Positions 1,588 to 15,298 of a DNA stretch of 64,000 bases are shown piece after piece; positions within the stretch are counted from its first letter, which is position 1, and each line of letters begins with the position of its first letter. The stretch lies in NCBI GenBank assembly GCA_036337945.1, contig JAYZDF010000063.1, forward strand, positions 26,560 to 90,559. The letters are read 5' to 3'. Below the pieces are notes generated by a model that made no database searches, was not told where the DNA came from, and saw nothing but the letters and a program-made list of their open reading frames with translations. The DNA is from Myxococcota bacterium. Its GTDB lineage: Bacteria > Myxococcota > Kuafuiibacteriia > Kuafuiibacteriales > Kuafuiibacteriaceae. Both the position numbers and the translations under genes were made by a program.

Positions 1588-1933
1588 GGTTGCGACCGGA
1601 AAGCAAACGCAAGCTGGTGGTTCAAAATCCGACGACCCTGGTCGTCGAGCGGGTTACAACCGGACCCTAAGTCAGCAAGATATCTCTCGGCTAGCCGCCG
1701 AACTTGAGGAGCGAGGGCGCCGCGGTGTCAATCGCTATATCAACCCAAAAAACCGCAGTAAGAAAGAGGGCAGCGCATTTGCGATAGCCAATGAGGGCAC
1801 TCAAAGTTTCGAGGTTTACGCGCAAGAAACGAAGCCGTTGTCCCGAGAAGAAGCGGTGGCCCAGCATGACGAGCTTTGGCGATATAATCGTTCAATGCGC
1901 GATCTTGTCGGTGTCAAAGTATTTGGCCACTAA
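1472..1933 (+). CDS. doubtful hypothetical ORF (low-complexity, basic) that fills the gap between two minus-strand genes
   Basis: 153-aa ORF with no recognisable motifs. It overlaps the 5' end of the 298..1587 ORF if that ORF uses its longest start. Confidence 0.2.
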   Translation: MSRIGQNLQGLNLLAAAKRLVASVSSDSSSQINPHQQNKVATGKQTQAGGSKSDDPGRRAGYNRTLSQQDISRLAAELEERGRRGVNRYINPKNRSKKEGSAFAIANEGTQSFEVYAQETKPLSREEAVAQHDELWRYNRSMRDLVGVKVFGH

Positions 1934-2710
1934 CCGACCATTGATAAACGCCAGTACCACGTACGCGATAAAGAAAGCTGTGATACCGGAAGTATCGTGA
2001 TAGTTCTGCACGCCGAGTAAGTCGTTCGCTTCATATGACTGTGCCGCGAAACAAAGAGCGCTAATCCGGCCGATGTTGGTAATGGCCGACAAAACTAAGC
2101 TTGCTGCGATGAGCCACGCGATGATTTTCGAGTGCGTACGCTTGAGACTGCCAACAAAGACCGCTAGAGCGACGAAGCGAACCGCTAGGCGCGCACCGCT
2201 ACATTCTGCTGTAATGTAGATCCGGTGGGGGTCACACCAAATTTGGTTATCTGTTCGAATAGCTAAACTCGTATCAAAAATCTGAGTGAACCATGAGGTC
2301 GCTGCTGCCGTAGATATCTGTAAGGATTCTCCAAAATGTAAATCAAGCAAATAGCTCGTTGGAGCGATGAAGAAAAGTAACAATATTCGTCCTGTTGCCA
2401 ACGCAGGGAAGTAGCGATGAAACAGTAGTAAAGTGGCCGGTGCGATAGCATAGCTTGCAATCCAGATTGCATCTAGCACTATGGAAAAAACAGAGATGAT
2501 TGCGAGCAACCAAGGAAGTTGTGAAATAAACGGAATATGAATGGGACCTGGCTCGGCGTATTTGCGTCCTAGCCATATTGCCCAAGCGGTCATGATAGGC
2601 GCGCAGATAATGATTTCTGCGTATCCACCAATTAATGCGTCAAAAAAAACTTCATACACCCCGTAAAGACCGATTAATATACTCGCGATGCATGCAATGA
2701 CGTTAGGCAT
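1892..2710 (-). CDS. exosortase/archaeosortase-family integral membrane transpeptidase (Xrt-like)
   Basis: Polytopic membrane protein. It has the family's conserved motifs: active-site AECSGARLAVRF (Cys-Ser-Gly then Arg), ITNIGRISAL (N-x-x-R-I) and NYHDTSG (His-x-x-G) in successive TM regions. A 9-nt gap downstream of lnt implies co-transcription. Confidence 0.6.
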   Translation of the reverse strand: MPNVIACIASILIGLYGVYEVFFDALIGGYAEIIICAPIMTAWAIWLGRKYAEPGPIHIPFISQLPWLLAIISVFSIVLDAIWIASYAIAPATLLLFHRYFPALATGRILLLFFIAPTSYLLDLHFGESLQISTAAATSWFTQIFDTSLAIRTDNQIWCDPHRIYITAECSGARLAVRFVALAVFVGSLKRTHSKIIAWLIAASLVLSAITNIGRISALCFAAQSYEANDLLGVQNYHDTSGITAFFIAYVVLAFINGRLVAKYFDTDKIAH

Positions 2711-2719
2711 AAGTTGTTT

Positions 2720-4102
2720 CTAATCCTGGCGTCGAAAACCGAACAGGAGGACAACGAGAGTGTATCCTAAGGTCAACGGTGCGAATACACCTTCTGTTCT
2801 CGTAAATATTGATTGCTTACTTTTGAGTTTTATTTTTCCAACGAGAATTCCCGGTTTCCATACTGGTAAATGATGTGTGACCTGACCGCTAGAATCGATC
2901 AGTAGACTTGGCCCCACTTGTGATGAGTGAATTGCTGGTCGCCGCCGCTCAATGGCGCGAAGTACTGTTTTCCGTGCATGCAGCTCGGCAATATTCGTAT
3001 GACCAAAAGCGCCTGGGTCCGTAAAGACTGCGATTGCTTTCGCCTCCTTGGCATGATCAAAAAGGCGCGGAAAAACGCTTTCCCAACAAATAACGGGGGC
3101 GATAGGGGCCTTACTTGGGCCGAGCACGGTTCCCTTCGTTCCCGCACCCAGTCCCGCCTCGATCACGGGTACGTTTTTTCGTTTGTCGTAAATTTGTGCA
3201 GTTTCGAAACCTGGCTCTATATACCAAACAGAATTAAAGTTGATTCCGTCATTGCGATACCTGGGTAGCCCAGCGAGCAGGGCAGGGCGAGTTGTAGAGC
3301 TTAGTGTCTTTCGTAGTTTCTCTTCTTTAGTTGGGTCATGAGGAAGCGCGGTTTCTGGCCAAACTATGAGTTCAACATCCGAAGGTACCTGACTCAAGCT
3401 ATCTGTGTAGGCGTTCTTTAGCACTTGTGAAAACTCGAAGTCTTTTGCTGCGAATTCATAAAACCAATAAGGAATCGCTGCCTGCACGAGTGCAACGTTT
3501 AGCCTTTGGTCGTCGGTTCGTTGTTCTTCTGTCTGTAAATGGTAAAGGCTATAAAGTGAGCTAAGTAGAAGCGCACAGAAAGCTGGTATAGCCGGCTTGA
3601 CCGAGAGTTGGTTTCGGACAGCATATAATGAGGCCCCCAGCCATGCGACGACAAATCCCACAAGATATGTACCACCAAGGTCAGCAATTTGAATGAACCA
3701 GAGTTGGTAAGCAAATCCGTCGCCAAGAGGGGCTGGATTCCAAGCGAGAAGTGTTCGGATATATTCAATTCCGCACCAAAGGGAAGCAACGGTAATTGGT
3801 GTGCCCCAACGCCCACGAAACAATAGTGGCAAGAGGACGACAAAAGCCATTCGGAAGAAAAGGTGCATCAGCCAGGCAACGCCGAATACGTCCCAGCCGT
3901 TTATGATGAAAGACCAAAACGCAAGGCCATCGAAACTGCCAAATAGGAATGCTGGAATGATTGCGCTGCGCGATGTCTTCGTTCTTGTGCATTCGCAGAT
4001 GATTGCGATTCCTAACACAGCAAGCCACGGTGCTTGATCATGAGAAAAAGACATGAGGAGTCCAGCGAGTGCACTCCAAAGCAAGCTCATATCCTTATTC
4101 AT
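2720..4102 (-). CDS. lnt: apolipoprotein N-acyltransferase
   Basis: N-terminal multi-TM domain plus C-terminal CN-hydrolase domain. Catalytic triad context is present: LIVWPETALP (Glu), YDKRKNVP (Lys), PVICWESVFP (Cys), followed by a C-terminal TM helix. Confidence 0.8.
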   Translation of the reverse strand: MNKDMSLLWSALAGLLMSFSHDQAPWLAVLGIAIICECTRTKTSRSAIIPAFLFGSFDGLAFWSFIINGWDVFGVAWLMHLFFRMAFVVLLPLLFRGRWGTPITVASLWCGIEYIRTLLAWNPAPLGDGFAYQLWFIQIADLGGTYLVGFVVAWLGASLYAVRNQLSVKPAIPAFCALLLSSLYSLYHLQTEEQRTDDQRLNVALVQAAIPYWFYEFAAKDFEFSQVLKNAYTDSLSQVPSDVELIVWPETALPHDPTKEEKLRKTLSSTTRPALLAGLPRYRNDGINFNSVWYIEPGFETAQIYDKRKNVPVIEAGLGAGTKGTVLGPSKAPIAPVICWESVFPRLFDHAKEAKAIAVFTDPGAFGHTNIAELHARKTVLRAIERRRPAIHSSQVGPSLLIDSSGQVTHHLPVWKPGILVGKIKLKSKQSIFTRTEGVFAPLTLGYTLVVLLFGFRRQD

Positions 4103-4374
4103 CGTTTGGTTATGGTACTCCTACAATTTTTTGTATCTGCGAGTTTTGCAGCATATTCGCTATCCACGGCAAATACGCCTAGGCCTGGCCGTTCAACGAT
4201 TCGTCCATTTTCCAAGTTTTGAAGCATAACGATAGGCTTTCCATTTTCCGCACCAATTCCTGGCGATATGAGACAGCCGTTCGGGGCCTTGTTGTGTTCT
4301 ATGCTTTGCCTTCTTCGCTTTAGGATTTCTTCTATTGTAAGTGCACGAGACAAGATTGGAGCACCTGTCTTCAT
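4099..4374 (-). CDS. hypothetical small protein; its ATGA overlaps the lnt start
   Basis: 91-aa ORF. The upstream in-frame sequence encodes a TM-like segment (FTFIAGLLVIAGFIHY) but lacks any ATG, GTG or TTG. Confidence 0.4.
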   Translation of the reverse strand: MKTGAPILSRALTIEEILKRRRQSIEHNKAPNGCLISPGIGAENGKPIVMLQNLENGRIVERPGLGVFAVDSEYAAKLADTKNCRSTITKR

Positions 4375-4524
4375 AGATGCTTCAGCCGAAAGAAACTGGT
4401 ACGAACTAATGGATGTGGGCTTTTGATTTTCTTCGAAAGCCTGGAGAGTGCGTTGGCCGTAGTGAATAAAGCCAGCAATGACCAGTAGGCCAGCAATGAA
4501 GGTAAATCGTTCGATAGGTAAGTT

Positions 4525-7242
4525 TTATCGCACGATCATGAGAATGTCATCATCATCAATCATATCGCCATCATAGTCGGAGTTGTCTTCCCAAACCATG
4601 ATGAGCTGCGTACCATCCACGGCCATGCTTGGCTCAATGGAAATTCCCTGATTGACAGAGTTCATACCGATGTCACTGATTGATGCGTACGGTGAGAACA
4701 TAGAGCCATTCCAAGTTCTCATATAAATATCGAGGTCGGTTCCTGCGCCGTTGATATCACCCGCATCCTCCCAACTTGCGTGGACGTTTCCAAGAGAATC
4801 AATGGCGACATCAGCATTGGTGCTCCTTCCGTCATTGATGTCGTCGCTCAAAAGGATCAGCGAGCCTCGGCCAGCTGGGGTTTGAGGGACAAAGAAGTTG
4901 GCCATGAAGACATCGATGTCAGTACCGTTATTAATTACGTTACCAGAACCGTGCCAGGTAATGTAGAGAAGCCCTCGTGAATCAGCTGGGTCAGCGGCAA
5001 TTCTCGGACGATAGACATTATCGAAACCGTTTTCTTCAGAGATAAGAACGATAGGTCCCCATGTGCAGCCACCTGCCATGTTGGGTGTAGAGCCGCGGTA
5101 ATAAATATCACGGTTCATATCGGTATCCGACATATCGATTTGCCCGTCATCTTGCCAGACGACATGCGGGCAGTTGTCTGGTGTAACCGCGATTCTCGGA
5201 CGGACAGAAACGCCATCTAAACCAGGAAGTGCATCACTGATTAGAGTTGGCTGGTTGAACCCAGCAGAACCACCGCTGGCGTAATAGATATCATAGTCTG
5301 TATCTCCGTCACCGTCGAGGTCACCATTATCTTGCCAGACCACGTGAGCGATGCCTCGGCCGTCGACTGCGACATCGGGATAAATGGAACGATAATCTTG
5401 TTCGTCAGGGCCTGAACCTGCGCCCATAGATGATTGAGATACCAGTAAAGCATTCGTGCCGAGAGACTGCCCATCGTGGTTTCGGTAGTAGATATCTGAC
5501 TCCACGTCGGTGTCTTGATCCAGTGCACCATCATCCTGCCAAACGATATGAAGCCCACCGTTTGACGCTGGTGATACGCTGACATTTTCGGAGTTACCGT
5601 CAAGAACGGGGTTCACAAAATTTGAAACTGTTTCGATGACTGACATCGCAGAACCTGTTCCGTAGAGACGAAGATAGATATCGCGGTCTGTGCCTTCTTC
5701 CGCTCGCTCTACGTTGTCACGCCAAACAACCCCGATTGCGCCATTCGTCGTGACGGCTACTGCAGGACGGTTACTACTTGCTCGGCTAGGATCACTTCCC
5801 CACTCCATTGGGGGAGGATCGTCAGAAACGATACGCGCGAGGTTTGCGACCTCAACGATCATCGTCACTGGGGTCGAGCTGTTCCCCGCGATATCAATCG
5901 CGGTGATGGTGAGTACATGACTTCCATCAGCAACCTGAGTTGTGTCCCAGGCGACAGAGAATGTGGAAGTGTCGGCAAGCGGGATACTTGTCAACGCTTG
6001 ACCATCGACGGCGACGTCAATCGCAGCCACGCCATTCATATTCATATCGGTTGTATTGTCGGTCGCTTCTCCTTCAATGAGAGCAAGGCCGGTCAGTGTG
6101 TCTCCTGCCATGGGCGACAAAATTGTGAGCGCCGGCATCGTGGTGTCTAGCGTAACTGTTGCAACGATGGGATTGCCGGAGGTTCTTCCGCAGAAATCGC
6201 GGGCGTCAATCTGAATAAAGTTCTGGCCTGCGCTGAGAGTGTAAGAAAACATAAAAGTTGTTTCCGCATTCTCCATGACGACTTCATCGTCGTTGACGAG
6301 AATCGCAGAGTTCGCCTCTTTTGTACCGCTGAGCATCAGGTCTGGATTCGACGTGTATGAACCCGGAAGCATAGCTGCTGGAATTTCTGGTTGCGATGGC
6401 GCTGTAGAATCATATTCAACTTCAACCGTGTGTGGAAGACTGATGTTTGTTCCGATTTGTCCAACAAACTCGAGAGTATTTTTTCCTTCATTGAGAGCTA
6501 CAGTGTGTGTCCACGTTGTTTCGTCACCGGCTTCGATTATGAGCGTGTCATTGAGGAGAACAGCTACTCCGGGTGCTCGTTTTCCGGTGATGACTTGAGA
6601 GTCGTCGCAGGTGGGTGACATTGGGTCATCGACGCTCAAGCCGATACCGCTGTCGTCTTGAAAGATATCGAGCTCGACAACTTCGCTTGCACGACATGAA
6701 TCACGTGCCTCGATACGAACTGTATTTGGTCCTGGCATGAGCATGACCTGAGCCGTCCACATTGTGGACTCATCAGGTGGTACAGCAACCATCCCGTCGA
6801 TTGATATTCCAGCACCTGCTTCTTTTTCACCTGAGATGGTGAACATTCTTTCCATAACAACCGCAGGAATCATTCCCGTGACCGTTGGTTTGGCGGGTTG
6901 TGTCAGATCTAGAGTCGTGTTCTTCCGAATGGAGTCACTTTCTTGACCCGTTGCACTTTTAGCAACGATCGTCAGCGTGTTTGTTCCTTCCATCATTTCG
7001 ACCGAAGCATTCCAGGCTGCCTTTTCGTCGAGGGGAACGACTTCCACTCCGTTGATCCAGATGGCAGTAGAACTCTGCTTGGTACCCGATATCGGTGCCG
7101 GTGAAGCGCACACTGTTTCAGCGAGGTCGGCGGTTGGTTTTTCTGGTTTGTCTGTGACGCTAGAGTCCGTTGTTTCTTCGCACGCGAAGCACAATGCGGC
7201 TGCTAAGATCGAGTAAAGTCGAAGGGAATTCGTATGAATCAT
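4525..7242 (-). CDS. secreted (lipo)protein with N-terminal Ig-like/Big-type domains and a C-terminal 7-bladed beta-propeller built from W-x-D...D-x-D-x-DIYYR repeats
   Basis: Signal peptide with Cys (AALCFAC). Seven repeats of about 45-50 aa, for example VVWRDN..GTDRDIYLR, IVWQDDG..DVESDIYYR, VVWQDNG..DTDYDIYYA, VVWQDDG..DMNRDIYYR, ASWEDAG..GTDLDIYMR. Confidence 0.7.
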   Translation of the reverse strand: MIHTNSLRLYSILAAALCFACEETTDSSVTDKPEKPTADLAETVCASPAPISGTKQSSTAIWINGVEVVPLDEKAAWNASVEMMEGTNTLTIVAKSATGQESDSIRKNTTLDLTQPAKPTVTGMIPAVVMERMFTISGEKEAGAGISIDGMVAVPPDESTMWTAQVMLMPGPNTVRIEARDSCRASEVVELDIFQDDSGIGLSVDDPMSPTCDDSQVITGKRAPGVAVLLNDTLIIEAGDETTWTHTVALNEGKNTLEFVGQIGTNISLPHTVEVEYDSTAPSQPEIPAAMLPGSYTSNPDLMLSGTKEANSAILVNDDEVVMENAETTFMFSYTLSAGQNFIQIDARDFCGRTSGNPIVATVTLDTTMPALTILSPMAGDTLTGLALIEGEATDNTTDMNMNGVAAIDVAVDGQALTSIPLADTSTFSVAWDTTQVADGSHVLTITAIDIAGNSSTPVTMIVEVANLARIVSDDPPPMEWGSDPSRASSNRPAVAVTTNGAIGVVWRDNVERAEEGTDRDIYLRLYGTGSAMSVIETVSNFVNPVLDGNSENVSVSPASNGGLHIVWQDDGALDQDTDVESDIYYRNHDGQSLGTNALLVSQSSMGAGSGPDEQDYRSIYPDVAVDGRGIAHVVWQDNGDLDGDGDTDYDIYYASGGSAGFNQPTLISDALPGLDGVSVRPRIAVTPDNCPHVVWQDDGQIDMSDTDMNRDIYYRGSTPNMAGGCTWGPIVLISEENGFDNVYRPRIAADPADSRGLLYITWHGSGNVINNGTDIDVFMANFFVPQTPAGRGSLILLSDDINDGRSTNADVAIDSLGNVHASWEDAGDINGAGTDLDIYMRTWNGSMFSPYASISDIGMNSVNQGISIEPSMAVDGTQLIMVWEDNSDYDGDMIDDDDILMIVR

Positions 7243-7302: not shown

Positions 7303-9042
7303 TTAGAGTTTTAGGGTACCGTAGGACAAATACATCATGGTTAAATTGATGGATAAGTGGCACAAAAATGGGGGTAGGAAGCTGCGTGACTTGTAGTACA
7401 TTAGATACAAAGGTATTCCAGCGCCTACGGTGATCATTCCAATTGATTGCCAAGCTTGCAGGCTCGTGGTGAGACCGACCGAGAGCTGTTCATAGCTCGG
7501 TGATAAATCTACCAGGGCACCCTCCGCAACGGGCGCTATTTGAGAAAAGTCGACCGCTTCAAGAGGGTTTGCAGCAAATGAGTAGTACGTCATATGATAG
7601 AGGCCAAAAAGTAAGCCTCCGAAGACGCTGGGTAGCCAATGGCCTGGCAGTCCTCGCGCCAGATTTCTCGCTAAAAACCCTCGGAAGAAGACCTCTTCAG
7701 CTGCAACGTGGAAAATTGTAAGACCAATGACCACTTCAAGCGCTGATTTTACCGCTTGAGCGGGAGACAAAAAGCCTACGCCGATGCCAAACCCAATCGC
7801 AGGAACCAACCATATTGGGTTACACATAAAATCCGCTTTGTTGAACTTTTGGTCTTTCAAGAAAAACAAGGAGAGAACAACGCCAAAGATGATGAGTAGA
7901 CCTCGTCGAAGGTAGAAGAAATTGTCGCCAGCATCGTAGAAGTATTCGTTGACTCCCATTCTCGACAGTACAGCCATCGCGTAAAGGGCCACAAAAATCA
8001 CGCCAAAACTGAAAATACTTCCGAGCAAACGGCTGAGTTTCGCTTCGGCGATTACATTGTCTCGTTTACCTTTTTTGGTAACTTTGAACGATGCTTTCGA
8101 ATTGGCTTCTGATTTCGATTTTTGGCGGGATTTGAATTCTGAGCCCAACCTATGTGAATCTGAGCTCGCGCTTTTCGTTATCTTCCCTGAGCTTATGTCT
8201 ACGGCGCGTTGCAGTTCGTTCGCGATGTCTCGTCGTCCGGGTTCAATCTCGAGCGCTGACTTGTAGAATTTGATGGCGGCTTTCGCACGACCTACTTCAA
8301 CGGTTGATCGACCGAGATAAACGAGAGTAGAGACACAATATGGAGATTTTTCATGAATCTCTCGTAACTTTCCAAGGAAACCTAGTTTGTCTTGATCGTT
8401 CTTCGCGAGTTTGAATTGAGAGTACGTAAAGGAAGAATGATATTCGGACGTATTTGGGTGTGCTTCTGCAAGCTTTCGAAATATTTCAAGTGCTTCACCC
8501 GCTCGACCTTCCTCAAGATGTCTAAGTCCCAAATCGAATTGAGAACGCTCTCGGAGGTATATAGCGACTTCGTCACCGGGCTCGTCGGTGTTTGCTGGGC
8601 TTACTGCCGCTTCTGCTTGTTGCTCAAGCGCTTGTATCTCCTGACTCATTGAAGCACTTGCCAGTGGATGATAGCTTTTGGAACGTTCGGACGAAGTGTT
8701 GTCGAATAAGAAGTCTTCTACGGTTTTTGGTCTTTCTTGTGGTGGTTCGGGTGTTGGCTCTTCTGTCTGTGCAGGCGCAGTGACATTGGGCGCAGGCGCG
8801 ACGCTGCTCCGACTTTGAATCTCTTGAAACGCTACTGCAAATTCCCGAACACTCAGAATGGGGACATACTGAGTGAAAGGTGCAACAGCAACGTGCGAGT
8901 TTGTAGCTATTTTACCAGCCCGAATCGAGGCGGATATATCCGCCGCGGGAGACGGTCCATATTCGTTCCCGTTTGCAATTCGGAGGCGATACAGCGGCTC
9001 CGTCATCGCGGATACTCTGTCACGCATTGCGCCTGTCAGCAA
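7303..9042 (-). CDS. multidomain membrane protein: N-terminal DUF4339-like domain, TPR repeats, C-terminal CPBP (CAAX protease/Abi) family intramembrane metalloprotease
   Basis: C-terminal polytopic region carries CPBP motifs EEVFFRGF (EExxxR), FGLLFGLYH (FxxxH) and CHLSINL (HxxxN). The middle has TPR-like helical repeats. The N-terminus GNEYGPSPAADISASIRAGKI...VAPFTQYVP is DUF4339-like. The track start is TTG; an ATG lies 15 nt downstream. Confidence 0.7.
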   Translation of the reverse strand: MLTGAMRDRVSAMTEPLYRLRIANGNEYGPSPAADISASIRAGKIATNSHVAVAPFTQYVPILSVREFAVAFQEIQSRSSVAPAPNVTAPAQTEEPTPEPPQERPKTVEDFLFDNTSSERSKSYHPLASASMSQEIQALEQQAEAAVSPANTDEPGDEVAIYLRERSQFDLGLRHLEEGRAGEALEIFRKLAEAHPNTSEYHSSFTYSQFKLAKNDQDKLGFLGKLREIHEKSPYCVSTLVYLGRSTVEVGRAKAAIKFYKSALEIEPGRRDIANELQRAVDISSGKITKSASSDSHRLGSEFKSRQKSKSEANSKASFKVTKKGKRDNVIAEAKLSRLLGSIFSFGVIFVALYAMAVLSRMGVNEYFYDAGDNFFYLRRGLLIIFGVVLSLFFLKDQKFNKADFMCNPIWLVPAIGFGIGVGFLSPAQAVKSALEVVIGLTIFHVAAEEVFFRGFLARNLARGLPGHWLPSVFGGLLFGLYHMTYYSFAANPLEAVDFSQIAPVAEGALVDLSPSYEQLSVGLTTSLQAWQSIGMITVGAGIPLYLMYYKSRSFLPPFLCHLSINLTMMYLSYGTLKL

Positions 9043-9231: not shown

Positions 9232-9444
9232 CTATTGCTTGTTACGTTTGATGATTCGTCGGCCCAATTCAGTACCAGCCACGACGGCGCACATTGCAAG
9301 AAAGCCGGGTTCGGGTGCCGATGCTCCCCCGCCTGCGCCTGCTCCTTGACCACCACCCCCGCCGCCAGCGAGTGCAGTCAGCGATGTGAGCATAATGGGC
9401 AGAATAACCATTGATCGTATGTATAAACTTTTGAACGTATTCAT
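9232..9444 (-). CDS. mini PEP-CTERM-like protein: signal peptide, then Gly-rich low-complexity linker, then PEP motif, TM helix and basic tail
   Basis: MNTFKSLYIRSMVILPIMLTSLTALA | GGGGGGQGAGAGGGASA | PEP GFLAMCAVVAGTELG RRIIKRNKQ. The track ORF starts 8 codons upstream at a TTG; the ATG (MNTF) with a preceding GGGGA is preferred. It lies 8-10 nt downstream of the pilin stop. Confidence 0.5.
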   Translation of the reverse strand: MNTFKSLYIRSMVILPIMLTSLTALAGGGGGGQGAGAGGGASAPEPGFLAMCAVVAGTELGRRIIKRNKQ

Positions 9445-9454
9445 CGTGTTCCCC

Positions 9455-10009
9455 TTAGAATCTACCAAACGTGAGATTAACTAAGCCGCCCCAAGTATTC
9501 ACCGGGGTTGCTCCTGAGAATGAACCAGCTGGTTCAATGTTATTAGGGTCTGTCCGCCACGCAAACATGAAGACGGCGGGTGCGCCGTTTACGTCGAGGT
9601 CACTTGTTGCCTCGCATCGAACGGCTTCGTTCAAGAACGTGCAGCCGTAATGATAGTAAACTTGCCCCGCGGGCTCGAACCCGATGTCCGTAAATGTACC
9701 GCTTCCCGTTTGTGATGCATTTTGCCCGCTCGTCGGAGAGGCGAAGCGAGGCCAAACTTTCTTCATTCCAGTGATTGGTATCCCTGGCTCGATGCGAGTG
9801 TTGCAGTACGTATCAAAGCTCGCTTTGAAAGCCACTTGGCTCGTTCGAATGCCGCCCAAATTGGTTTTGGCCTCGGTAGTGCGCGCTTTTAGCGTGTATT
9901 TTAGATACAGTGGGATGGCCACGGATGCGAGGATCCCGATAATTGCTACCGTAATCATCAATTCGATGAGTGTGAATCCGGCGGTTCCTTTCTTCGGTAT
10001 TTTCATCAT
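9455..10009 (-). CDS. type IVa pilin (PilA-like major pilin)
   Basis: Prepilin leader MMKIPKKGTAG followed by FTLIELMITVAIIGILASVAIP (Gly-1, Phe+1, Glu+5). C-terminal Cys pair (YGC...VRC) forms a D-region disulfide loop. Shine-Dalgarno AAGGGG lies about 10 nt upstream of the ATG. Confidence 0.8.
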   Translation of the reverse strand: MMKIPKKGTAGFTLIELMITVAIIGILASVAIPLYLKYTLKARTTEAKTNLGGIRTSQVAFKASFDTYCNTRIEPGIPITGMKKVWPRFASPTSGQNASQTGSGTFTDIGFEPAGQVYYHYGCTFLNEAVRCEATSDLDVNGAPAVFMFAWRTDPNNIEPAGSFSGATPVNTWGGLVNLTFGRF

Positions 10010-10209: not shown

Positions 10210-11166
10210 CTAGAAAGTGAATGTGTAAGATGCTGTAGGTTGGCCTGCGCTAGCCATTGGGGTTGTTATTGCGGGTACTTGACTGGAGCCCCAGCCGGTA
10301 AGTTGAAACAAAACGCCGACCAGACCGATTCCAACTGCGCTTCCTAAGGTCACATAACCCGTGAGTTGTCTGGATTGTGCGCTGAGCAGAAGTTCTTCCC
10401 GTTGCATGAATTCTGTTTGGGGTGTTGCGTTGCGAGCTTGAAGGTCTAACCCGTACATGGCGAAAGATGCAGCGCTTCCCAGAGCAAGGGCTCCAGCGAG
10501 CCCCCAAAAGGTGTACGCAATGTAATTCGGCCCATCGACCATTGGTACGTTTGACTGAAGCGTTACAGCGGGATTTTGTTGGATCGGAGGGGCGCCTCCA
10601 AACCCAGAAGCTGAATTTTGATTAGGAACCGGTGGAGGCAATGAAGAACCGGCCGACACGCGATTACTTTTCGGACGCGCTTTCGCTCTGAGAGGGCCCC
10701 CGTTTTGATATGCGGGCAACGCTTCGACTTTTGCGCCAACCTTTTGCATCGATTCTGTGATTGTCTTTTCTATGAATGACAGCCCAACGGCTGTTCGTGC
10801 ACGCACTCTTTCGACCGGATTTGATGTTGCAATATCTAATAGGGTGACTTGCGTAAGAACCTTGTTCTTTCTGCGAGCGACAATGGTATGAATCGCGTGA
10901 GAAGCTTCTGTAGACTGAGAAGCCGTTGAAATACACGACATCTTGTTTTTGCATTGTGCGAGCTTAAGCAGAACAAACCGGTCCACCTTCAACTCTTTAA
11001 TAGAGCTCTTCTTTAACTGCGCGGAGATACGTTCCAATATCAGGTCACGAGCAGGCTCAAGACCTTCACCGAGGATCGGAGGTACAACAACAATTTGAGC
11101 TTTCGCGTTGTTCGAAAAAAACAACGAAAGACATGTAACTAAAATAACGAGCCAACGTATTGGCAT
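10210..11166 (-). CDS. secreted hypothetical protein with two C-terminal glycine-zipper hydrophobic helices and an aromatic C-terminus (YTFTF)
   Basis: Signal peptide LSLFFSNNAKAQ. Gly-zipper segments GLAGALALGSAAS and GSAVGIGLVGVLF. No recognisable catalytic motif. Confidence 0.5.
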   Translation of the reverse strand: MPIRWLVILVTCLSLFFSNNAKAQIVVVPPILGEGLEPARDLILERISAQLKKSSIKELKVDRFVLLKLAQCKNKMSCISTASQSTEASHAIHTIVARRKNKVLTQVTLLDIATSNPVERVRARTAVGLSFIEKTITESMQKVGAKVEALPAYQNGGPLRAKARPKSNRVSAGSSLPPPVPNQNSASGFGGAPPIQQNPAVTLQSNVPMVDGPNYIAYTFWGLAGALALGSAASFAMYGLDLQARNATPQTEFMQREELLLSAQSRQLTGYVTLGSAVGIGLVGVLFQLTGWGSSQVPAITTPMASAGQPTASYTFTF

Positions 11167-11330: not shown

Positions 11331-14300
11331 TTAGGGCTTGAGTTCAAGCAAATAGGCCGCGCCGCAAAAATTTTGGTCACGGGCGGCGTCGAGCGCTCCG
11401 ACCCCCAAATAAGTAGCGCCAGAAATTTGAGCACTGGATAGGGTGTGGCCCGGTCGTCCGCCCGGGTAATTTGTTTGTCCGATAAAACTGGCGACTGGAA
11501 ATGGATTAAGGCCGACGCCATAAATGAACTCATACATCTGAATATCGCCCGCCAAAGACGTTCCCCCGTAATCACCGTAGGGCACACCAACAGCAAGTCC
11601 GACTCGGCCTTGCCCATCGAAATTCGGAATAAATGTCACCCCATTGCCGAAGTTGCCTGACCCTGTCGAACCCGGCAGAGAGAGAACCAGCTGATTGCTT
11701 GGGTCGCTGAAACCATAAAAGGTAGCAGTGGACGCATTTTCAATTGGTTCTGGCGTCAAAGTCTGAAGGTACGAACCCAAAATAATCCATACTGCGCCAA
11801 CAACATTGCCGTTCAGTCTGTACTCGTTTCCGCCGACTGCCAGATCAGGAAGTCCGTCAGAGTCGATATCGAGACCACCGCTGAGACTTGTACCCGCTCT
11901 TGAGAATCGCGACCGTGACTCGAGCGTCAAGAGCTGAGGAGTCAGATAGTCACAGTTGATTCCGGCTCCGAAGACAATCCGTATCGTTCCTTGATTCGTG
12001 CTTCCGTTATCCTCCTCACGGCTGCCAACGACAAATTCATCGCATCCATCGCGATTAAGGTCCCCGAGTTTTCCTAGTGAATGCCCGATTCGACTATTTG
12101 GGCTGATGCCGTACATCGTTGGTTGAACATCACAAATGATTTGAGTCCGTCCATTATTGCTCGGTGCGCGTCCATGAAGGATGGTAAAGCCACCAGAATT
12201 ATTTATACCGGGTGCATCCCAATTAACGCCTGAAACAATAACATCATCAAAGCCGTCGCCGTTCACGTCTACGTCGCCGACGACAGCGTACATTTCAGAG
12301 CTACGGTGAGGTCCGTAATAAATGTAAGCCGGTTGTGACGATATATTCCCATTGGAGTCACCGCGAAATATAAATACCGCGCCTGAGTTATTCTTGCTGG
12401 GCCCGCAAGTTGTTCCGATGACATCATAGGTACTGTTGTTAAAAGACGAAGGTTGATCATCGTAGCGAGCGACGACCGCAAAGTCATTGGTCCCGTCGTT
12501 ATCAAAGTCTCCGACGCGGCTAACGCTGAAACCGAAATGGTCACCGCCCGAATGTCGTCTAAATCGGTCGAGTTCTACATCTGGTTGTGTACCAAAGCCG
12601 TTTGCTGTTCCGAAATAAAGGGCGGCACCGCCGGCGTTGATGCCTACCGAACGAATATCTCTGGCGTGAGCGCCGACCAAAAAGTCAGTAATGTTGTCAC
12701 CATTCACATCGCCAACAAAATCTACTGATATGCCGAATTGATCACCCCCTGCGGAGCCGGGGAGCCCGAGAAGTTCTAACGGTTTGCTTTCGTCTCCAGG
12801 TACGAAAAACGGTGCACCTTCGTTAATGCCGTAGACATCAGAGTATGCAGAAAGTGCAACCAGGTCATTACGCCCGTCGCGGTCTAAATCTCCAACGACG
12901 TCAAAGAACATACCAAAGCGATTTTCGGAAGTAGGCCCAACGATGACTCGCATGGGCGTTGTTGTCGCTGTATCCGGTAATATTCCATCTTCGCCTTCGA
13001 AAATGAATATTGTCCCGGCGTTGTTGCGGCCACCAGGAATTTCGTCGCTATGGTTGCCGACAATTAGGTCGTTTCTCGTGTCACCATCGTAATCTGACAC
13101 GCGCACATACCATCCAGCTTCGTCATTATTATTCGCACCGAACCAGGACAGAGTAGCTGTTTCAACGGCAGATAGATTGAGCATTGGTGTGTCAGGCAAG
13201 TCGAGTTCTTGATAAATCCTGATAGCGCCTCGATTTGTTCCACCTGCGGCGGCATTTTCAGCCCGGAACTGCGTAACGACGAGTTCGTCTGCGAGGTCTC
13301 CGTCGAGGTCTCCAGCCGCCATGAAACGAGCAAACTGGCTCGATCTTTCGGGAGCGACAGTGGCTGCATACCCGCGAACTGGAAATGGCGTCAGCCCGCC
13401 AGGTCCGCTACCATCGGCAGCTCGGCCTCGATAAATAAACAACAGTCCATCATCGGTATTGGTGGGGCCAGCGTCATAAACAAAAGTACCCGCAGCAAGG
13501 TCACAAACCGCATCTCCGTTGAAGTCACCGGCGGCTAAAGCGCGCCCAAGTTGGAGGCTTGTCCGACCCGCGAATGTTCCGTCGCCCAGCGGCATATCCC
13601 CCCAAAGTGAAACGTCCGGTGTATCAGAAAATCCATCAGATCCACCCATATGGATATAAACAGCGCCTTGGTCGTTACTTCTTGTTCGTCGTAGGCGATC
13701 TTCGGCTAAAATTGCACCGATCGCGATGTCCATGTATCCATCGGCGTTGAAGTCACAAGCTTCGACAGCGGTTCCTGCGTAGTCAAATGCGTTAGTTCCG
13801 CCGATGGCTCGAGTAGGTTCTGCACTAAAGAAAGAATTCGGTTGTCCTGAAAAAATATAGACACCACCGTTATCGCGAGCGCCAATATCAGCGCGCATGG
13901 CACCGACGATCAGGTCGAGTAAGCCGTCTCCATCCAGGTCGGCAATGGTCATAGAACGCCCAAACTGCGCGCTTCGACCGCCTTCACTGAGGACGCGAAC
14001 CGGTGTTGGATCCAATCCTGTGGCAGTCCCTTGATAAATAAGCACAGCGCCTGAGTCCGTCGCATTATAGTTTGTTTCTGCCCAAGCCACGGCGACATCG
14101 TCAAACCCGTCTTGATTGATGTCTCCGGTTCGAACGACCGCGCCTGAATTAATGTATGAGCCAGAACGAGTTGTAGAACTGGTGAGAGAAGGGACAGCGA
14201 AAGCTGAAATTTGACTCGTTTGAGATGTGTAACGGTCTGTGACAGAAAGCAGTGTGTCACCTTCTGCTAATGCTTTGATTGTACCGTTCGCGTAAGAGAA

Positions 14301-15149
14301 GTTTGTATTACTCGGTGTAATATCAAAAAATCCGCTGCCTCCATTTATTTGAACTACGTATTCTGTTTCCACGGGCATATATACAGATGAGGGAACAGGT
14401 TGGAGAACGGCATTTTCTTGTAGCTCGATCAATGCATCTGCTGCGTCGCCTGTGAGAATATCTTCAATTCTAATTCTTTCCTGGCCAGCGCTTCCATTGC
14501 CCATGTAAAGACCGCTTGCCGAAATCGTACCAGTGCTTGCACCATTCGGCCGTGGCAAAATTCTGTAACTAAATTGCCCCGAGCCATCAAAGACTTCAAA
14601 TTGAACCTGTCCGTTTGTATCGATGGTCGCATTTTGAGGACGGACCTCAATTCGCGAAAGTACATTGACGGTTGCAGTAGCCGTTCCTGTGCAACCTAGG
14701 TCGGTGACGTGAATGGTGTCCGTTGTTTGTTCGACCGTGCCGGAAAGATAGGCTCCTGTCTCAATATTGAGTACTGCTCCGGAATTATTTTCTGCGAGTT
14801 CGAAAACATGAGCTCCGGTTCCACCACTCGCTTGGAAGTTGATGAGTCCCAAAGGTGTCGCTGATTTTGCTTCCGGTTGAACGGTGAGCGCAGGAGAGCA
14901 GGGTCCGATTTTCGCGCCACTGTCCGGTTGAATTGAGCCGGTATCCGGGCGAGCGAAACCTGCATCGGGCTCTGTGGGTGCGGCATCGACGGTTGCCTCT
15001 ACATCAGGGATGACAACTGCGGATGCATCCGGCCCGAGAGGGATCGGCGGTAGATCTACGGTTTGTTCGCATCCCAGGGCTACAGAGAATGCGACCGAGG
15101 GTATCAGCCATTTGCCTTGAGGCTTAGTAAAACTAGCGATGGAGGTCAT
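11331..15149 (-). CDS. giant FG-GAP (integrin-alpha/VCBS-type) repeat lipoprotein
   Basis: Lipobox VAFSVALGC. More than 15 FG-GAP-like repeats (DINQDGFDDVAVAW, DLDGDGLLDLIVGA, DFNADGYMDIAIGA, GDFNGDAVCDLAAG, DVNGDGFDDVIVSG and others). The track start at 15242 is an upstream alternative; I prefer MTSIASF at 15149. Confidence 0.75.
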   Translation of the reverse strand: MTSIASFTKPQGKWLIPSVAFSVALGCEQTVDLPPIPLGPDASAVVIPDVEATVDAAPTEPDAGFARPDTGSIQPDSGAKIGPCSPALTVQPEAKSATPLGLINFQASGGTGAHVFELAENNSGAVLNIETGAYLSGTVEQTTDTIHVTDLGCTGTATATVNVLSRIEVRPQNATIDTNGQVQFEVFDGSGQFSYRILPRPNGASTGTISASGLYMGNGSAGQERIRIEDILTGDAADALIELQENAVLQPVPSSVYMPVETEYVVQINGGSGFFDITPSNTNFSYANGTIKALAEGDTLLSVTDRYTSQTSQISAFAVPSLTSSTTRSGSYINSGAVVRTGDINQDGFDDVAVAWAETNYNATDSGAVLIYQGTATGLDPTPVRVLSEGGRSAQFGRSMTIADLDGDGLLDLIVGAMRADIGARDNGGVYIFSGQPNSFFSAEPTRAIGGTNAFDYAGTAVEACDFNADGYMDIAIGAILAEDRLRRTRSNDQGAVYIHMGGSDGFSDTPDVSLWGDMPLGDGTFAGRTSLQLGRALAAGDFNGDAVCDLAAGTFVYDAGPTNTDDGLLFIYRGRAADGSGPGGLTPFPVRGYAATVAPERSSQFARFMAAGDLDGDLADELVVTQFRAENAAAGGTNRGAIRIYQELDLPDTPMLNLSAVETATLSWFGANNNDEAGWYVRVSDYDGDTRNDLIVGNHSDEIPGGRNNAGTIFIFEGEDGILPDTATTTPMRVIVGPTSENRFGMFFDVVGDLDRDGRNDLVALSAYSDVYGINEGAPFFVPGDESKPLELLGLPGSAGGDQFGISVDFVGDVNGDNITDFLVGAHARDIRSVGINAGGAALYFGTANGFGTQPDVELDRFRRHSGGDHFGFSVSRVGDFDNDGTNDFAVVARYDDQPSSFNNSTYDVIGTTCGPSKNNSGAVFIFRGDSNGNISSQPAYIYYGPHRSSEMYAVVGDVDVNGDGFDDVIVSGVNWDAPGINNSGGFTILHGRAPSNNGRTQIICDVQPTMYGISPNSRIGHSLGKLGDLNRDGCDEFVVGSREEDNGSTNQGTIRIVFGAGINCDYLTPQLLTLESRSRFSRAGTSLSGGLDIDSDGLPDLAVGGNEYRLNGNVVGAVWIILGSYLQTLTPEPIENASTATFYGFSDPSNQLVLSLPGSTGSGNFGNGVTFIPNFDGQGRVGLAVGVPYGDYGGTSLAGDIQMYEFIYGVGLNPFPVASFIGQTNYPGGRPGHTLSSAQISGATYLGVGALDAARDQNFCGAAYLLELKP

Positions 15150-15298
15150 AAGGTATCCCTTTGGTACCACGATTACTGGGGTGGAAGAAAATTGGGACCG
15201 TCGAACTTTTGTTGGGGTAATAGGAGTTGCTGTATATCGCACAAGATCGTCGGATAAAGGAAAAGCCGCGTTGATAAGGATTAGGAATACGCGCTATT

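What the first reader, a model, noticed from the sequence alone, without database searches (positions are those of the whole stretch)
7303..9042. DUF4339-TPR-CPBP intramembrane protease fused in one protein, directly downstream of the mini PEP-CTERM gene
CPBP (CAAX/Abi) proteases process C-terminal motifs or bacteriocin-like peptides, and a CPBP subfamily has been proposed as the myxosortase for MYXO-CTERM. Here the complete EExxxR / FxxxH / HxxxN motif set is fused to a cytoplasmic TPR scaffold and an N-terminal DUF4339-like domain. The gene is adjacent to a small Gly-rich secreted peptide. This is an alternative, or additional, processing enzyme for that peptide besides the exosortase-like protein.
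Basis: partly seen in the sequence, partly recalled or inferred. Interest (0 to 1): 0.65.

Follow-up and report, generated by a model that had tools for sequence, protein, structure and literature searches.

The report
Membrane protease partner of mini-peptide exosortase system
This gene encodes a membrane-embedded protease with two cytoplasmic docking domains, and across distant relatives it stays grouped with a tiny glycine-rich secreted peptide, a sorting enzyme (exosortase), a lipid-transfer enzyme and a pilin-like protein, so it is probably one part of an undescribed peptide-processing pathway.

Summary
The minus-strand ORF encodes a 567-aa protein; the true start is ATG at 9006, not TTG at 9042. 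It has an N-terminal GYF_2/DUF4339-like domain (below the Pfam threshold, GYF fold in the model), a three-repeat TPR domain, and a 7-helix CPBP/Rce1-like domain (PF02517, E 3.6e-13) with intact EExxxR, FxxxH and HxxxN motifs. With no signal peptide and a basic stretch before the first helix, the GYF and TPR domains are predicted to be cytoplasmic.

Relatives from 91% down to about 25-30% identity keep the same neighbours: a pilin-like gene, a 53-80 aa peptide (signal peptide, oligo-Gly run, PEP-like motif, short helix, basic tail), this CPBP, a small membrane protein, an Lnt-like acyltransferase and a short exosortase. Functional linkage is therefore strong. Cleavage of the peptide by the CPBP is inferred, not shown.

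In distant loci the peptide sits beside the exosortase, so the CPBP looks like an added component rather than an alternative sortase. It fails the myxosortase, TIGR03008 and XrtE-fusion models. No component reaches a specific NCBIfam family cutoff except the window's Lnt homolog, which passes the generic Lnt model.

Verdict: a new variant of the known CPBP-exosortase association. Interest 0.6.

The parts
7303..9006 (-). GYF-like/TPR/CPBP gene, 567 aa plus the stop codon at 7303..7305. The maximal ORF extends to a TTG at 9042, but homologs support the ATG at 9006.
8806..9006 (-). Residues 1-67: GYF_2 (DUF4339)-like domain with beta-beta-alpha-beta-beta-alpha order; predicted cytoplasmic.
   Evidence: GYF_2 below threshold, E 0.0023. 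The model's best PDB matches are all GYF domains. GYF_2 scores E 1.2e-12 in relative L024.
8575..8805 (-). Residues 68-144: Pro- and acid-rich linker that is mostly low-confidence and variable in length among relatives.
   Evidence: pLDDT below 50 for residues 70-95, 100-120 and 135-141; alignment gaps
8191..8574 (-). Residues 145-272: three TPR repeats plus a capping helix (seven helices).
   Evidence: Pfam TPR_14 and related models; AlphaFold2 helices; Foldseek matches to CTPR3, SGT and RPAP3 TPR domains
8065..8190 (-). Residues 273-314: Lys/Arg/Ser-rich linker next to the membrane. By the positive-inside rule it places the N-terminal half in the cytoplasm.
7306..8064 (-). Residues 315-567: seven-helix CPBP/Rce1-like intramembrane glutamic protease domain. 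Motifs: EExxxR (E437, E438, R442; window 7681..7698), FxxxH (F467, H471; H471 at 7594..7596), HxxxN (H550, N554; 7345..7359). The clade-specific loop at residues 481-514 between helices 5 and 6 is predicted periplasmic.
   Evidence: PF02517 E 3.6e-13; hydropathy; AlphaFold2 helices; motif conservation
9232..9444 (-). 70-aa mini protein: signal peptide ending LTALA|GG, a Gly-rich 17-mer, APEP, a short hydrophobic helix (FLAMCAVVAGTELG) and a basic tail (RRIIKRNKQ). It is the only tripartite C-terminal sorting signal in the window.
9455..10009 (-). Type IV pilin-like protein with a prepilin leader (KKGTAG|FTLIELM). Its stop codon lies 10 nt before the mini gene start.
   Evidence: PF07963 and TIGR02532; conserved upstream neighbour in 7 loci
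10210..11166 (-). 318-aa secreted protein of unknown family, conserved in the cluster.
4525..7242 (-). 905-aa probable lipoprotein with Ig-like domains (Big_7), 60 nt downstream of the CPBP gene. It is the immediate downstream neighbour in every close relative.
4099..4518 (-). Small conserved membrane protein, homologous to the 142-aa gene of L030. Its start codon is uncertain; the ATG ORF is 4099..4374. Its stop codon overlaps the Lnt start.
2720..4102 (-). Lnt-like apolipoprotein N-acyltransferase homolog with the Glu/Lys/Cys triad conserved.
   Evidence: TIGR00546 166.6 bits; alignment
1892..2710 (-). Short exosortase (272 aa) with the Cys/Arg/His triad conserved. It is below the cutoff of every named Xrt family.
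11331..15242 (-). FG-GAP repeat probable lipoprotein at the head of the gene row, conserved in L002 and L030. Membership in the module is uncertain.

Best explanation
The gene encodes an inner-membrane CPBP (Rce1-like) glutamic intramembrane protease. Its N-terminal 314 residues (a GYF_2-like domain, a disordered linker, three TPR repeats and a basic linker) lie in the cytoplasm.

It is a conserved component of an unnamed multi-gene module:
- a type IV pilin-like protein;
- a mini protein (signal peptide, oligo-Gly run, PEP-like motif, short helix, basic tail);
- this CPBP;
- a small membrane protein;
- an Lnt-like N-acyltransferase;
- a short exosortase;
- often a large Ig-domain lipoprotein as well.

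Proposed mechanism (inferred):
1. The mini protein is exported by the Sec pathway and loses its signal peptide. It stays held in the inner membrane by its short C-terminal helix, with the basic tail in the cytoplasm.
2. The exosortase cuts at the PEP motif on the periplasmic side.
3. The CPBP cuts the short, helix-destabilised anchor at or near the conserved AGTE-x-GRR boundary. Its N-in topology and motif spacing match archaeal Rce1, so its active site should be reached from the cytoplasmic leaflet. The most likely role is clearing the leftover anchor after exosortase action; licensing the substrate before it is also possible.
4. The cytoplasmic TPR and GYF domains dock the basic C-terminal tail or a cytoplasmic partner.

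Shown here: the architecture, the intact catalytic motifs, the topology indicators and the conserved gene neighbourhood. Inferred: the substrate identity, the cleavage site and the order of events.
For: - Architecture and motifs.
- Topology: there is no signal peptide and a Lys/Arg-rich segment precedes helix 1. Seven helices are seen by hydropathy and by AlphaFold2. The E437-to-H471 spacing is 34 residues, much as I recall for M. maripaludis Rce1 (own knowledge).
- Whole gene row conserved at 42% CPBP identity (L030) and at 28% (L033: 309-aa protein, pilin, mini, CPBP, 147-aa protein, Lnt-like, exosortase).
- Partial rows where contigs are short: L001, L004, L029.
- Distant relatives with different N-terminal domains still sit beside a short exosortase and an oligo-Gly mini gene. 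L024 has GYF_2-TPR-CPBP; L022 and L007 have DUF4388-CPBP plus an Lnt-like gene.
- The catalytic triads of the exosortases and of the Lnt-like proteins are conserved.
- The mini protein is the only tripartite C-terminal signal in the 64-kb window.
- The mini family is rare, unnamed, and conserved chiefly in the PEP-helix-GRR part.
- Precedents: fusions of EpsH (exosortase) and CAAX-protease domains were noted in PMC1569441. A CPBP enzyme cleaving a tripartite C-terminal signal was shown for MrtX (PMC11980579).
Against: - There is no biochemical or co-folding evidence that the mini protein is the substrate.
- The pilin-like gene is an equally conserved upstream neighbour. It is directly adjacent to the CPBP where no mini gene intervenes (L032, L035).
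- The strictest immediate neighbour in the close clade is the Big_7 lipoprotein.
- A 225-nt gap, or an inserted opposite-strand gene, separates the mini gene from the CPBP gene.
- The active-site orientation rests on analogy with Rce1 and was not computed from coordinates.
- Two distant members (P0011, P0015) lack the Asn of motif 3.
- The mini protein matches no PEP-CTERM HMM.
Confidence: 0.5

Rival explanations
1. The CPBP acts on the pilin-like protein rather than on the mini protein. It might trim the prepilin's cytoplasmic leader or its N-terminal membrane helix, or control its turnover.
For: A gene with a canonical prepilin motif (G|F-T/S-L-I-E) lies upstream of the CPBP in 7 loci at 24-91% identity. 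It is directly adjacent in L032 and L035, where no mini gene intervenes. Prepilin leaders are cut at the cytoplasmic face of the membrane, the side this CPBP's active site is predicted to face (own knowledge).
Against: Prepilins are normally processed by the aspartic peptidase PilD (own knowledge). No pilin-like gene was detected in the held parts of L007, L022 and L024, where the CPBP still accompanies the exosortase and mini gene. L032 and L035 are short on the upstream side, so a mini gene there cannot be excluded.
Confidence: 0.15
2. The CPBP domain works mainly as a non-proteolytic scaffold or regulator, as reported for some Gram-positive Abi/CPBP proteins. It would tether cytoplasmic partners through the GYF and TPR domains to the exosortase/Lnt machinery.
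For: The large and interchangeable cytoplasmic modules (GYF_2, DUF4388, TPR, and one DnaJ) across the subfamily suggest signalling or docking. Two distant members have a degenerate motif 3.
Against: E437, R442 and H550 are at least 90% conserved across 40 sequences, and the full motif set is invariant in the close clade. That argues for retained catalysis.
Confidence: 0.15
3. The CPBP is the primary sorting protease of the mini protein (myxosortase-like). The exosortase would serve other PEP-CTERM proteins encoded elsewhere in the genome.
For: Myxosortase-type CPBP enzymes cleave tripartite C-terminal signals and can form two-gene pairs with one target (PMC11980579; bioRxiv 10.1101/2023.06.07.544157). 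In the close clade the mini gene lies on the CPBP side of the cluster.
Against: It fails the Mrt_core, MrtS, MrtJ and MrtC models. The mini protein has a PEP-type motif and no invariant Cys. In L022, L007 and L024 the mini gene is immediately upstream of the exosortase. No other PEP-CTERM protein was seen in the window or the loci.
Confidence: 0.1
4. The adjacency is coincidental. The protein would be a housekeeping CPBP unrelated to the peptide and the exosortase.
For: CPBP paralogs are abundant in bacteria; the myxosortase preprint reports more than 3 per genome that has any. In L034 and L036 no exosortase is visible in the short DNA held.
Against: The neighbourhood is conserved across about 25-91% identity and despite rearrangements.
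Confidence: 0.05

Closest known systems
Myxosortases and relatives (MrtX, MrtC, MrtP, MrtJ, MrtS; NCBIfam NF040914 core): CPBP proteases that cleave Cys-containing tripartite C-terminal sorting signals
   Same: Both have a CPBP/Rce1-like core with EExxxR, FxxxH and HxxxN motifs and variable N-terminal regions. Both are genetically tied to a protein carrying a motif-helix-basic-tail C-terminal signal. MrtJ likewise has a single adjacent target.
   Different: This protein scores far below the family cutoffs (16.3 against 100 bits). The associated signal is PEP-type with no invariant Cys. An exosortase is also present. The protein carries about 314 cytoplasmic residues (GYF plus TPR) not described for the Mrt enzymes.
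PEP-CTERM-associated CAAX protease-related protein (TIGR03008), and XrtE-type or other fusions of exosortase and CPBP domains (noted in PMC1569441)
   Same: A CPBP protein partnered with an exosortase system; the role of the CPBP is unknown in all of these cases.
   Different: TIGR03008 scores 14.2 bits against a cutoff of 81. Here the CPBP is a separate gene, not fused to the exosortase. The module also has an Lnt-like enzyme, a pilin-like protein and a single oligo-Gly mini substrate. The exosortase matches no named Xrt family.
Rce1 / M. maripaludis Rce1 (type II CAAX prenyl protease)
   Same: Same Pfam family and motif set, a similar Glu-to-His spacing, and the same predicted N-in orientation of the core helices.
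   Different: There is no CAAX substrate and no evidence for a lipidated Cys. No sequence-level PDB match was found. The GYF and TPR extension is additional.
GltJ of Myxococcus xanthus (GYF domain, PDB 7Z3C)
   Same: The N-terminal domain has the same fold: 57 columns aligned at rmsd 2.5 Å. The GYF_2 region of relative L024 also gives a weak hit to the GltJ model.
   Different: The resemblance is limited to this domain. GltJ is a gliding-motility protein and has no CPBP domain.

Membership tests
CPBP / Rce1-like (Pfam PF02517) | HMM score above the gathering cutoff | tested here: met
   50 bits against 22.4, E 3.6e-13
CPBP / Rce1-like (Pfam PF02517) | Motifs EExxxR, FxxxH and HxxxN/D located in successive membrane helices | tested here: met
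   E437-E438-R442 in helix 423-452, F467-H471 in helix 457-473, and H550-N554 in helix 544-565
CPBP / Rce1-like (Pfam PF02517) | Proteolytic activity | not testable with these tools
   Requires a cleavage assay
Myxosortase family (NF040914 Mrt_core; MrtX/C/P/J/S) | HMM score above cutoff | tested here: not met
   Mrt_core 16.3 against 100; MrtS 17.7 against 130; MrtJ 16.2 against 75
Myxosortase family (NF040914 Mrt_core; MrtX/C/P/J/S) | Cognate sorting signal with an invariant Cys in the signature motif | tested here: not met
   The mini protein's motif is A/V-PEP. The Cys inside the helix is replaced by Val in L030 and P0158 and is absent in L033, L024, L022 and L007.
TIGR03008 pepcterm_CAAX | HMM score above cutoff | tested here: not met
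   14.2 against 81.05 bits
TIGR03008 pepcterm_CAAX | Co-occurrence with an exosortase system | tested here: met
   An exosortase lies within 5 kb in the window, L002/L003, L030, L033, L022 and L024
Exosortase-CPBP fusion proteins (XrtE type) | Exosortase and CPBP domains in one polypeptide | tested here: not met
   They are separate genes about 4.6 kb apart. No such model was hit.
GYF_2 / DUF4339 (Pfam PF14237) | HMM score above the gathering cutoff | tested here: not met
   18.1 against 25.8 bits, E 0.0023. GYF_2 is nevertheless the only family hit, in 6 of 7 members.
GYF_2 / DUF4339 (Pfam PF14237) | GYF fold | tested here: met
   Model pLDDT 89.7. The top PDB matches are all GYF domains: Smy2, GltJ, GIGYF1/2 and CD2BP2. 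The homologous position in L024 scores GYF_2 at E 1.2e-12.
TPR | Repeated helix pairs with the TPR fold | tested here: met
   TPR_14 scores 28.1 against 23.5. Seven helices; Foldseek target TM-scores of 0.6-0.7 to three-repeat TPR domains.
PEP-CTERM sorting signal (for the neighbouring mini protein) | Match to a PEP-CTERM HMM | tested here: not met
   No Pfam or NCBIfam hit, even at E up to 10 for NCBIfam
PEP-CTERM sorting signal (for the neighbouring mini protein) | Tripartite layout (PEP motif abutting a hydrophobic helix, then a basic cluster), with an N-terminal signal peptide and a nearby exosortase | tested here: met
   Read from the sequences. Exosortase with the Cys/Arg/His triad intact.

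The most novel reading that the evidence does not exclude
The module is a self-contained pathway that turns a 70-aa precursor into a small oligoglycine product. Every mini protein has a signal peptide ending [L/F/W/Y/I]-A-G|G, which is a lipobox without its Cys. Cleavage there would expose an N-terminal oligo-Gly. The dedicated Lnt-like enzyme could N-acylate that amine, giving a Cys-independent lipopeptide. Alternatively or in addition, the exosortase could use it as the nucleophile, joining mini units head-to-tail or attaching them to the pilin-like or Big proteins. The GYF-TPR-CPBP would then act as a dedicated 'anchor-remnant peptidase', recycling the released helix and basic tail from the cytoplasmic side. 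Because it has a single tiny substrate, this would be a minimal model system for exosortase chemistry.
Probability: 0.15. Interest if true: 0.85.

Novelty: new variant of a known kind. Interest (0 to 1): 0.6.

Why it matters
CPBP proteases have been found beside or fused to exosortases since 2006, but their role there is unexplained. The only bacterial CPBP sorting enzyme tested so far, myxosortase, handles a different, Cys-dependent signal.

This module offers a compact and deeply conserved case: one exosortase, one CPBP, one Lnt-like acyltransferase and one 70-aa substrate whose mature part is about 17 mostly Gly residues. That makes two questions directly testable by co-expression and mass spectrometry: what exosortases attach their substrates to, and what the partner CPBP cuts.

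The module also widens the known CPBP architectures, adding cytoplasmic GYF_2 or DUF4388 plus TPR modules. It points as well to a possible non-lipobox role for an Lnt paralog.

Tried and rejected
- TTG start at 9042: rejected in favour of the ATG at 9006, because all homologs begin at MTEPLYRL.
- First genome-contig scan, using patterns from the N-terminal and TPR regions: no relatives found. The second scan, using CPBP-motif patterns, found only one informative locus, the Myxococcota MAG L007; the remaining loci were generic CPBP hits in Bacteroidota, Balneolales and one Eubacterium MAG.
- Word-index protein searches returned only 2 and 4 homologs. The exhaustive representative search was needed to see the family.
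- phmmer of the CPBP domain against PDB sequences: nothing meaningful.
- Foldseek of the full-length model: dominated by TPR matches, so the CPBP fold was not confirmed structurally.
- The promoter/terminator scan and RNA folding of the 225-nt gap between the mini and CPBP genes gave nothing above chance.
- Rfam: no hits in the window.
- Myxosortase, TIGR03008 and XrtE-fusion membership were considered and rejected on HMM scores.
- A role tied to a lipidated Cys in the mini helix was considered and set aside, because that Cys is not conserved.
- Taxonomy could not be fixed. The only named relative is a Myxococcota MAG, and the pilin's best model is the myxococcal PilA.
Full report
**1. What is at the coordinates**

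The window has a minus-strand ORF at 7303..9042, 579 codons from a TTG. The two closest homologs are P0001 (91% identity, 567 aa) and P0002 (56%, 558 aa). Both begin at MTEPLYRL, so the real start is the ATG at 9006 and the product is 567 aa.

Pfam gives PF02517 (Rce1-like/CPBP) at E 3.6e-13, 50 bits against a cutoff of 22.4. It also gives TPR_14 at 28.1 bits against 23.5, plus weaker TPR models. The three CPBP motifs can be read directly: A-E437-E438-V-F-F-R442, F467-G-L-Y-H471 and H550-L-S-I-N554. They are invariant in the close family and mostly conserved across 40 more distant sequences.

**2. The N-terminal domain**

- Scanned alone, residues 1-68 hit only GYF_2 (PF14237, formerly DUF4339), at E 0.0023 and 18.1 bits. 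This is below the 25.8-bit cutoff.
- Six of seven family members give the same single below-threshold hit.
- An AlphaFold2 model of the isolated domain (pLDDT 89.7) has beta-beta-alpha-beta-beta-alpha order. Its 15 best PDB matches are GYF domains or GYF-like subunits of plastid import (TIC/TOC) complexes. They include Smy2 and the Myxococcus xanthus GltJ GYF domain (rmsd 2.5 Å over 57 columns), with TM about 0.5-0.66.
- A distant relative (L024) has an unambiguous GYF_2 domain (E 1.2e-12) at the same position, followed by TPR and CPBP domains.

'DUF4339-like' is therefore right at fold level. It is not a formal Pfam member by score.

**3. Whole-protein model and topology**

The full-length model (mean pLDDT 81.7) shows these segments:
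- the GYF-like domain at residues 1-67;
- a mostly low-confidence Pro- and acid-rich linker;
- seven helices at 145-272;
- a low-confidence Lys/Arg/Ser-rich linker;
- seven long membrane helices between 315 and 565;
- a low-confidence loop at 481-514.

Foldseek aligns the 145-272 region to three-repeat TPR domains (CTPR3, SGT, and RPAP3 bound to an Hsp90 C-terminal peptide) with target TM-scores of 0.6-0.7. Hydropathy clearly finds helices 1-4; the later helices come from the model.

There is no signal peptide, and a Lys/Arg-rich segment (KSRQKSKSEANSKASFKVTKKGKRD) lies just before helix 1. The GYF and TPR half is therefore predicted to be cytoplasmic. That gives the core helices the same parity as archaeal Rce1, and the Glu-to-His spacing (34 residues) is also similar. 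The Rce1 comparison comes from my own knowledge and was not computed. By that analogy the active site would be reached from the cytoplasmic leaflet.

**4. Neighbourhood in the window**

The genes lie in one row on the minus strand:

| Position | Gene |
|---|---|
| 11331..15242 | FG-GAP probable lipoprotein |
| 10210..11166 | 318-aa secreted protein of unknown family |
| 9455..10009 | type IV pilin-like protein (G\|FTLIELM) |
| 9232..9444 | 70-aa mini protein |
| 7303..9006 | the CPBP |
| 4525..7242 | 905-aa Big_7 probable lipoprotein |
| about 4099..4518 | small membrane protein |
| 2720..4102 | Lnt homolog (TIGR00546, 166.6 bits) |
| 1892..2710 | 272-aa exosortase |

The mini protein reads MNTFKSLYIRSMVILPIMLTSLTALA|GGGGGGQGAGAGGGASA-PEP-GFLAMCAVVAGTELG-RRIIKRNKQ. 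It is the only ORF in the 64-kb window with a tripartite C-terminal signal. It matches no PEP-CTERM HMM.

The mini stop codon and the CPBP start codon are 225 nt apart. No promoter, terminator or RNA structure there exceeded chance.

**5. Is the association conserved?**

An exhaustive profile search found 250 relatives at E ≤ 0.001 and 21 at E ≤ 1e-30. In a sample of 46, 45 have the CPBP domain at the C-terminus. Their N-terminal regions carry DUF4388/PatA_N (20 members), TPR (about 15) or GYF_2 (5).

The genomic contexts recovered were these:

| Locus | Identity to the window CPBP | Gene order held |
|---|---|---|
| L002/L003 | 91% | identical row |
| L001 | 56% | unknown, pilin, mini, [opposite-strand lipoprotein], CPBP, Big |
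| L004 | 43% | mini, CPBP, Big |
| L029 | 43% | pilin, mini, CPBP, Big |
| L030/L031 | 42% | entire row from FG-GAP to exosortase, with an opposite-strand lipoprotein inserted between mini and CPBP |
| L005, L006 | 40-44% | [opposite-strand lipoprotein], CPBP, Big; the contig ends where the mini gene would be |
| L033 | 28% | 309-aa protein, pilin, mini (…GVPEPS…), CPBP, 147-aa protein, Lnt-like, exosortase |
| L024/L025 | 35% within the CPBP domain | GYF_2-TPR-CPBP flanked by a Big-like protein on one side; on the other, a 228-aa exosortase preceded by MNPTKILLGLTVLFVGAAAYA\|G11-AEPS-ALALLTMGAATWWAARKR |
| L022, L007 | about 30% | DUF4388-CPBP; mini (…LA\|G8-VRSASV…helix…RKSSK) then a 226-aa exosortase; convergent Lnt-like and M48-like genes; then the CPBP and an amidase. 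L007 is a Myxococcota MAG. |

The mini gene therefore accompanies this CPBP subfamily in nine non-identical loci, despite rearrangements. The exosortases keep their Cys/Arg/His triad. The Lnt-like proteins keep the WPE Glu, the Lys and the Cys.

None of the exosortases, CPBPs or mini proteins reaches the cutoff of any specific NCBIfam family. The mini family has only 19 clusters at 90% identity in 5.8 billion sequences. Sources give them no name or only 'hypothetical protein'.

**6.

The functional link between this CPBP and the Gly-rich peptide is well supported by the conserved neighbourhood. The refutation criterion (unrelated neighbours in relatives) is not met.

Three points limit the specific claim:
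- In distant loci the mini gene abuts the exosortase, not the CPBP. The exosortase is therefore the more natural PEP-cleaving enzyme and the CPBP an extra component.
- The CPBP fails the myxosortase models (16.3 against 100 bits). The mini protein also lacks the invariant Cys that MrtX-type cleavage needs (PMC11980579).
- The pilin-like gene is just as conserved upstream, and is directly adjacent in L032 and L035. It is a rival substrate.

**7. Proposed mechanism (inferred)**

The hydrophobic segment of the mini protein is short, about 15 residues between PEP and RR. In the close clade it ends in a conserved, helix-destabilising A-G-T-E-x-G-R-R at the cytoplasmic boundary. That is the kind of segment intramembrane proteases cut, and it lies on the side this CPBP's active site should face.

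I propose that the exosortase cuts at PEP on the outer side. The CPBP would then cleave or clear the remaining helix and basic tail from the inner side, or possibly pre-process it. The TPR and GYF modules would dock the tail or a cytoplasmic partner.

My confidence in this specific mechanism is about 0.5. My confidence that the protein belongs functionally to the module is about 0.85.

**8. Comparison with known systems**

- CPBP-exosortase links are already known as fusions (noted in PMC1569441) and as TIGR03008. In neither case is the CPBP's role known.
- CPBP enzymes as sorting proteases are established for MYXO-CTERM (bioRxiv 10.1101/2023.06.07.544157; PMC11980579).

This case differs in several ways: the cytoplasmic GYF/DUF4388-TPR extension, a single oligo-Gly mini substrate, an obligate Lnt-like partner, a pilin-like partner, and failure of all specific family models. 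I therefore class it as a new variant of a known kind.

**9. Speculative extension**

All mini signal peptides end in [L/F/W/Y/I]-A-G|G, a lipobox lacking its Cys, followed by an oligo-Gly run. With an Lnt-like enzyme always present, N-acylation of the exposed Gly is conceivable. Use of the oligo-Gly amine as the exosortase's nucleophile is also conceivable. Neither idea was tested here.

Noticed in passing
window 9232..9444 (-); also L001 2006-2215, L029 723-926, L030 8061-8273, L033 9748-9984, L024 about 6888-7050 (-), L022 ending at 6017, L007 about 5540-5700: Every mini protein has a signal peptide ending [L/F/W/Y/I]-A-G|G, which is a lipobox (L-A-G-C) without the Cys. A run of 5-13 Gly residues follows directly. 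Cleavage there would leave an N-terminal oligo-Gly, the classic nucleophile of sortase-type transpeptidation.
   Followed up: partly
window 1892..4102 (-); L030 14956-17144; L033 12109-14243; L022 6030-8035: An Lnt-like N-acyltransferase (Glu/Lys/Cys triad intact) is always next to the short exosortase (Cys/Arg/His triad intact). The two genes overlap by 4 nt in L030 and are 9 nt apart in the window. I found no description of this pairing in the literature searched.
   Followed up: partly
window 9455..10009 (-); L001, L029, L030, L033, L032, L035: A type IV pilin-like gene with a canonical G|F(T/S)LIE leader is a conserved upstream neighbour. It lies 10 nt before the mini gene in the window and directly before the CPBP gene in L032 and L035.
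   Followed up: partly
L001 2348-3481 (-), L005 63-1334 (-), L006 385-1968 (-), L030 8641-9864 (-): In some relatives an opposite-strand gene is inserted between the mini and CPBP genes; it is absent from the window. It encodes a 377-527 aa lipoprotein (…LSGC…) with a Cys-rich N-terminal domain and a long acidic Asp/Gly/Thr/Ser low-complexity tail.
   Followed up: no
L007 7699-8400 (-), L022 8217-8921 (-), L036 3-455 (-): In the distant DUF4388-CPBP loci, a small M48-like (Ste24-type HExxH) protein is divergently adjacent to the CPBP, and an Amidase_3 gene follows it. Homologs of both eukaryotic CAAX-protease families therefore sit side by side. The L036 gene is cut by the contig end and is assigned by position only.
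   Followed up: no
window about 4099..4518 (-): A small conserved membrane-protein ORF lies between the Big_7 and Lnt genes. It is 28% identical to the 142-aa gene of L030 (E 1e-12). It was not called in the public annotation of the 91%-identical contig L002. Its stop codon overlaps the Lnt start codon, and its own start codon is unclear.
   Followed up: partly
window 4525..7242 (-) and 11331..15242 (-): The Big_7 protein (…AALCFAC|EE) and the FG-GAP protein (…VALGC|EQ) both look like lipoproteins. Neither has a PEP-CTERM tail. Big_7 is the invariable immediate downstream neighbour of the CPBP gene in the close clade.
   Followed up: partly
window 7464..7565 (residues 481-514 of the CPBP): A loop of about 34 residues, acidic and with low pLDDT, lies between helices 5 and 6 and is predicted periplasmic. 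It is present in the window protein and in P0002-P0005, and absent from P0006 and all more distant relatives. P0006's locus also has Val in place of the Cys in the mini helix. This is a single observation.
   Followed up: no
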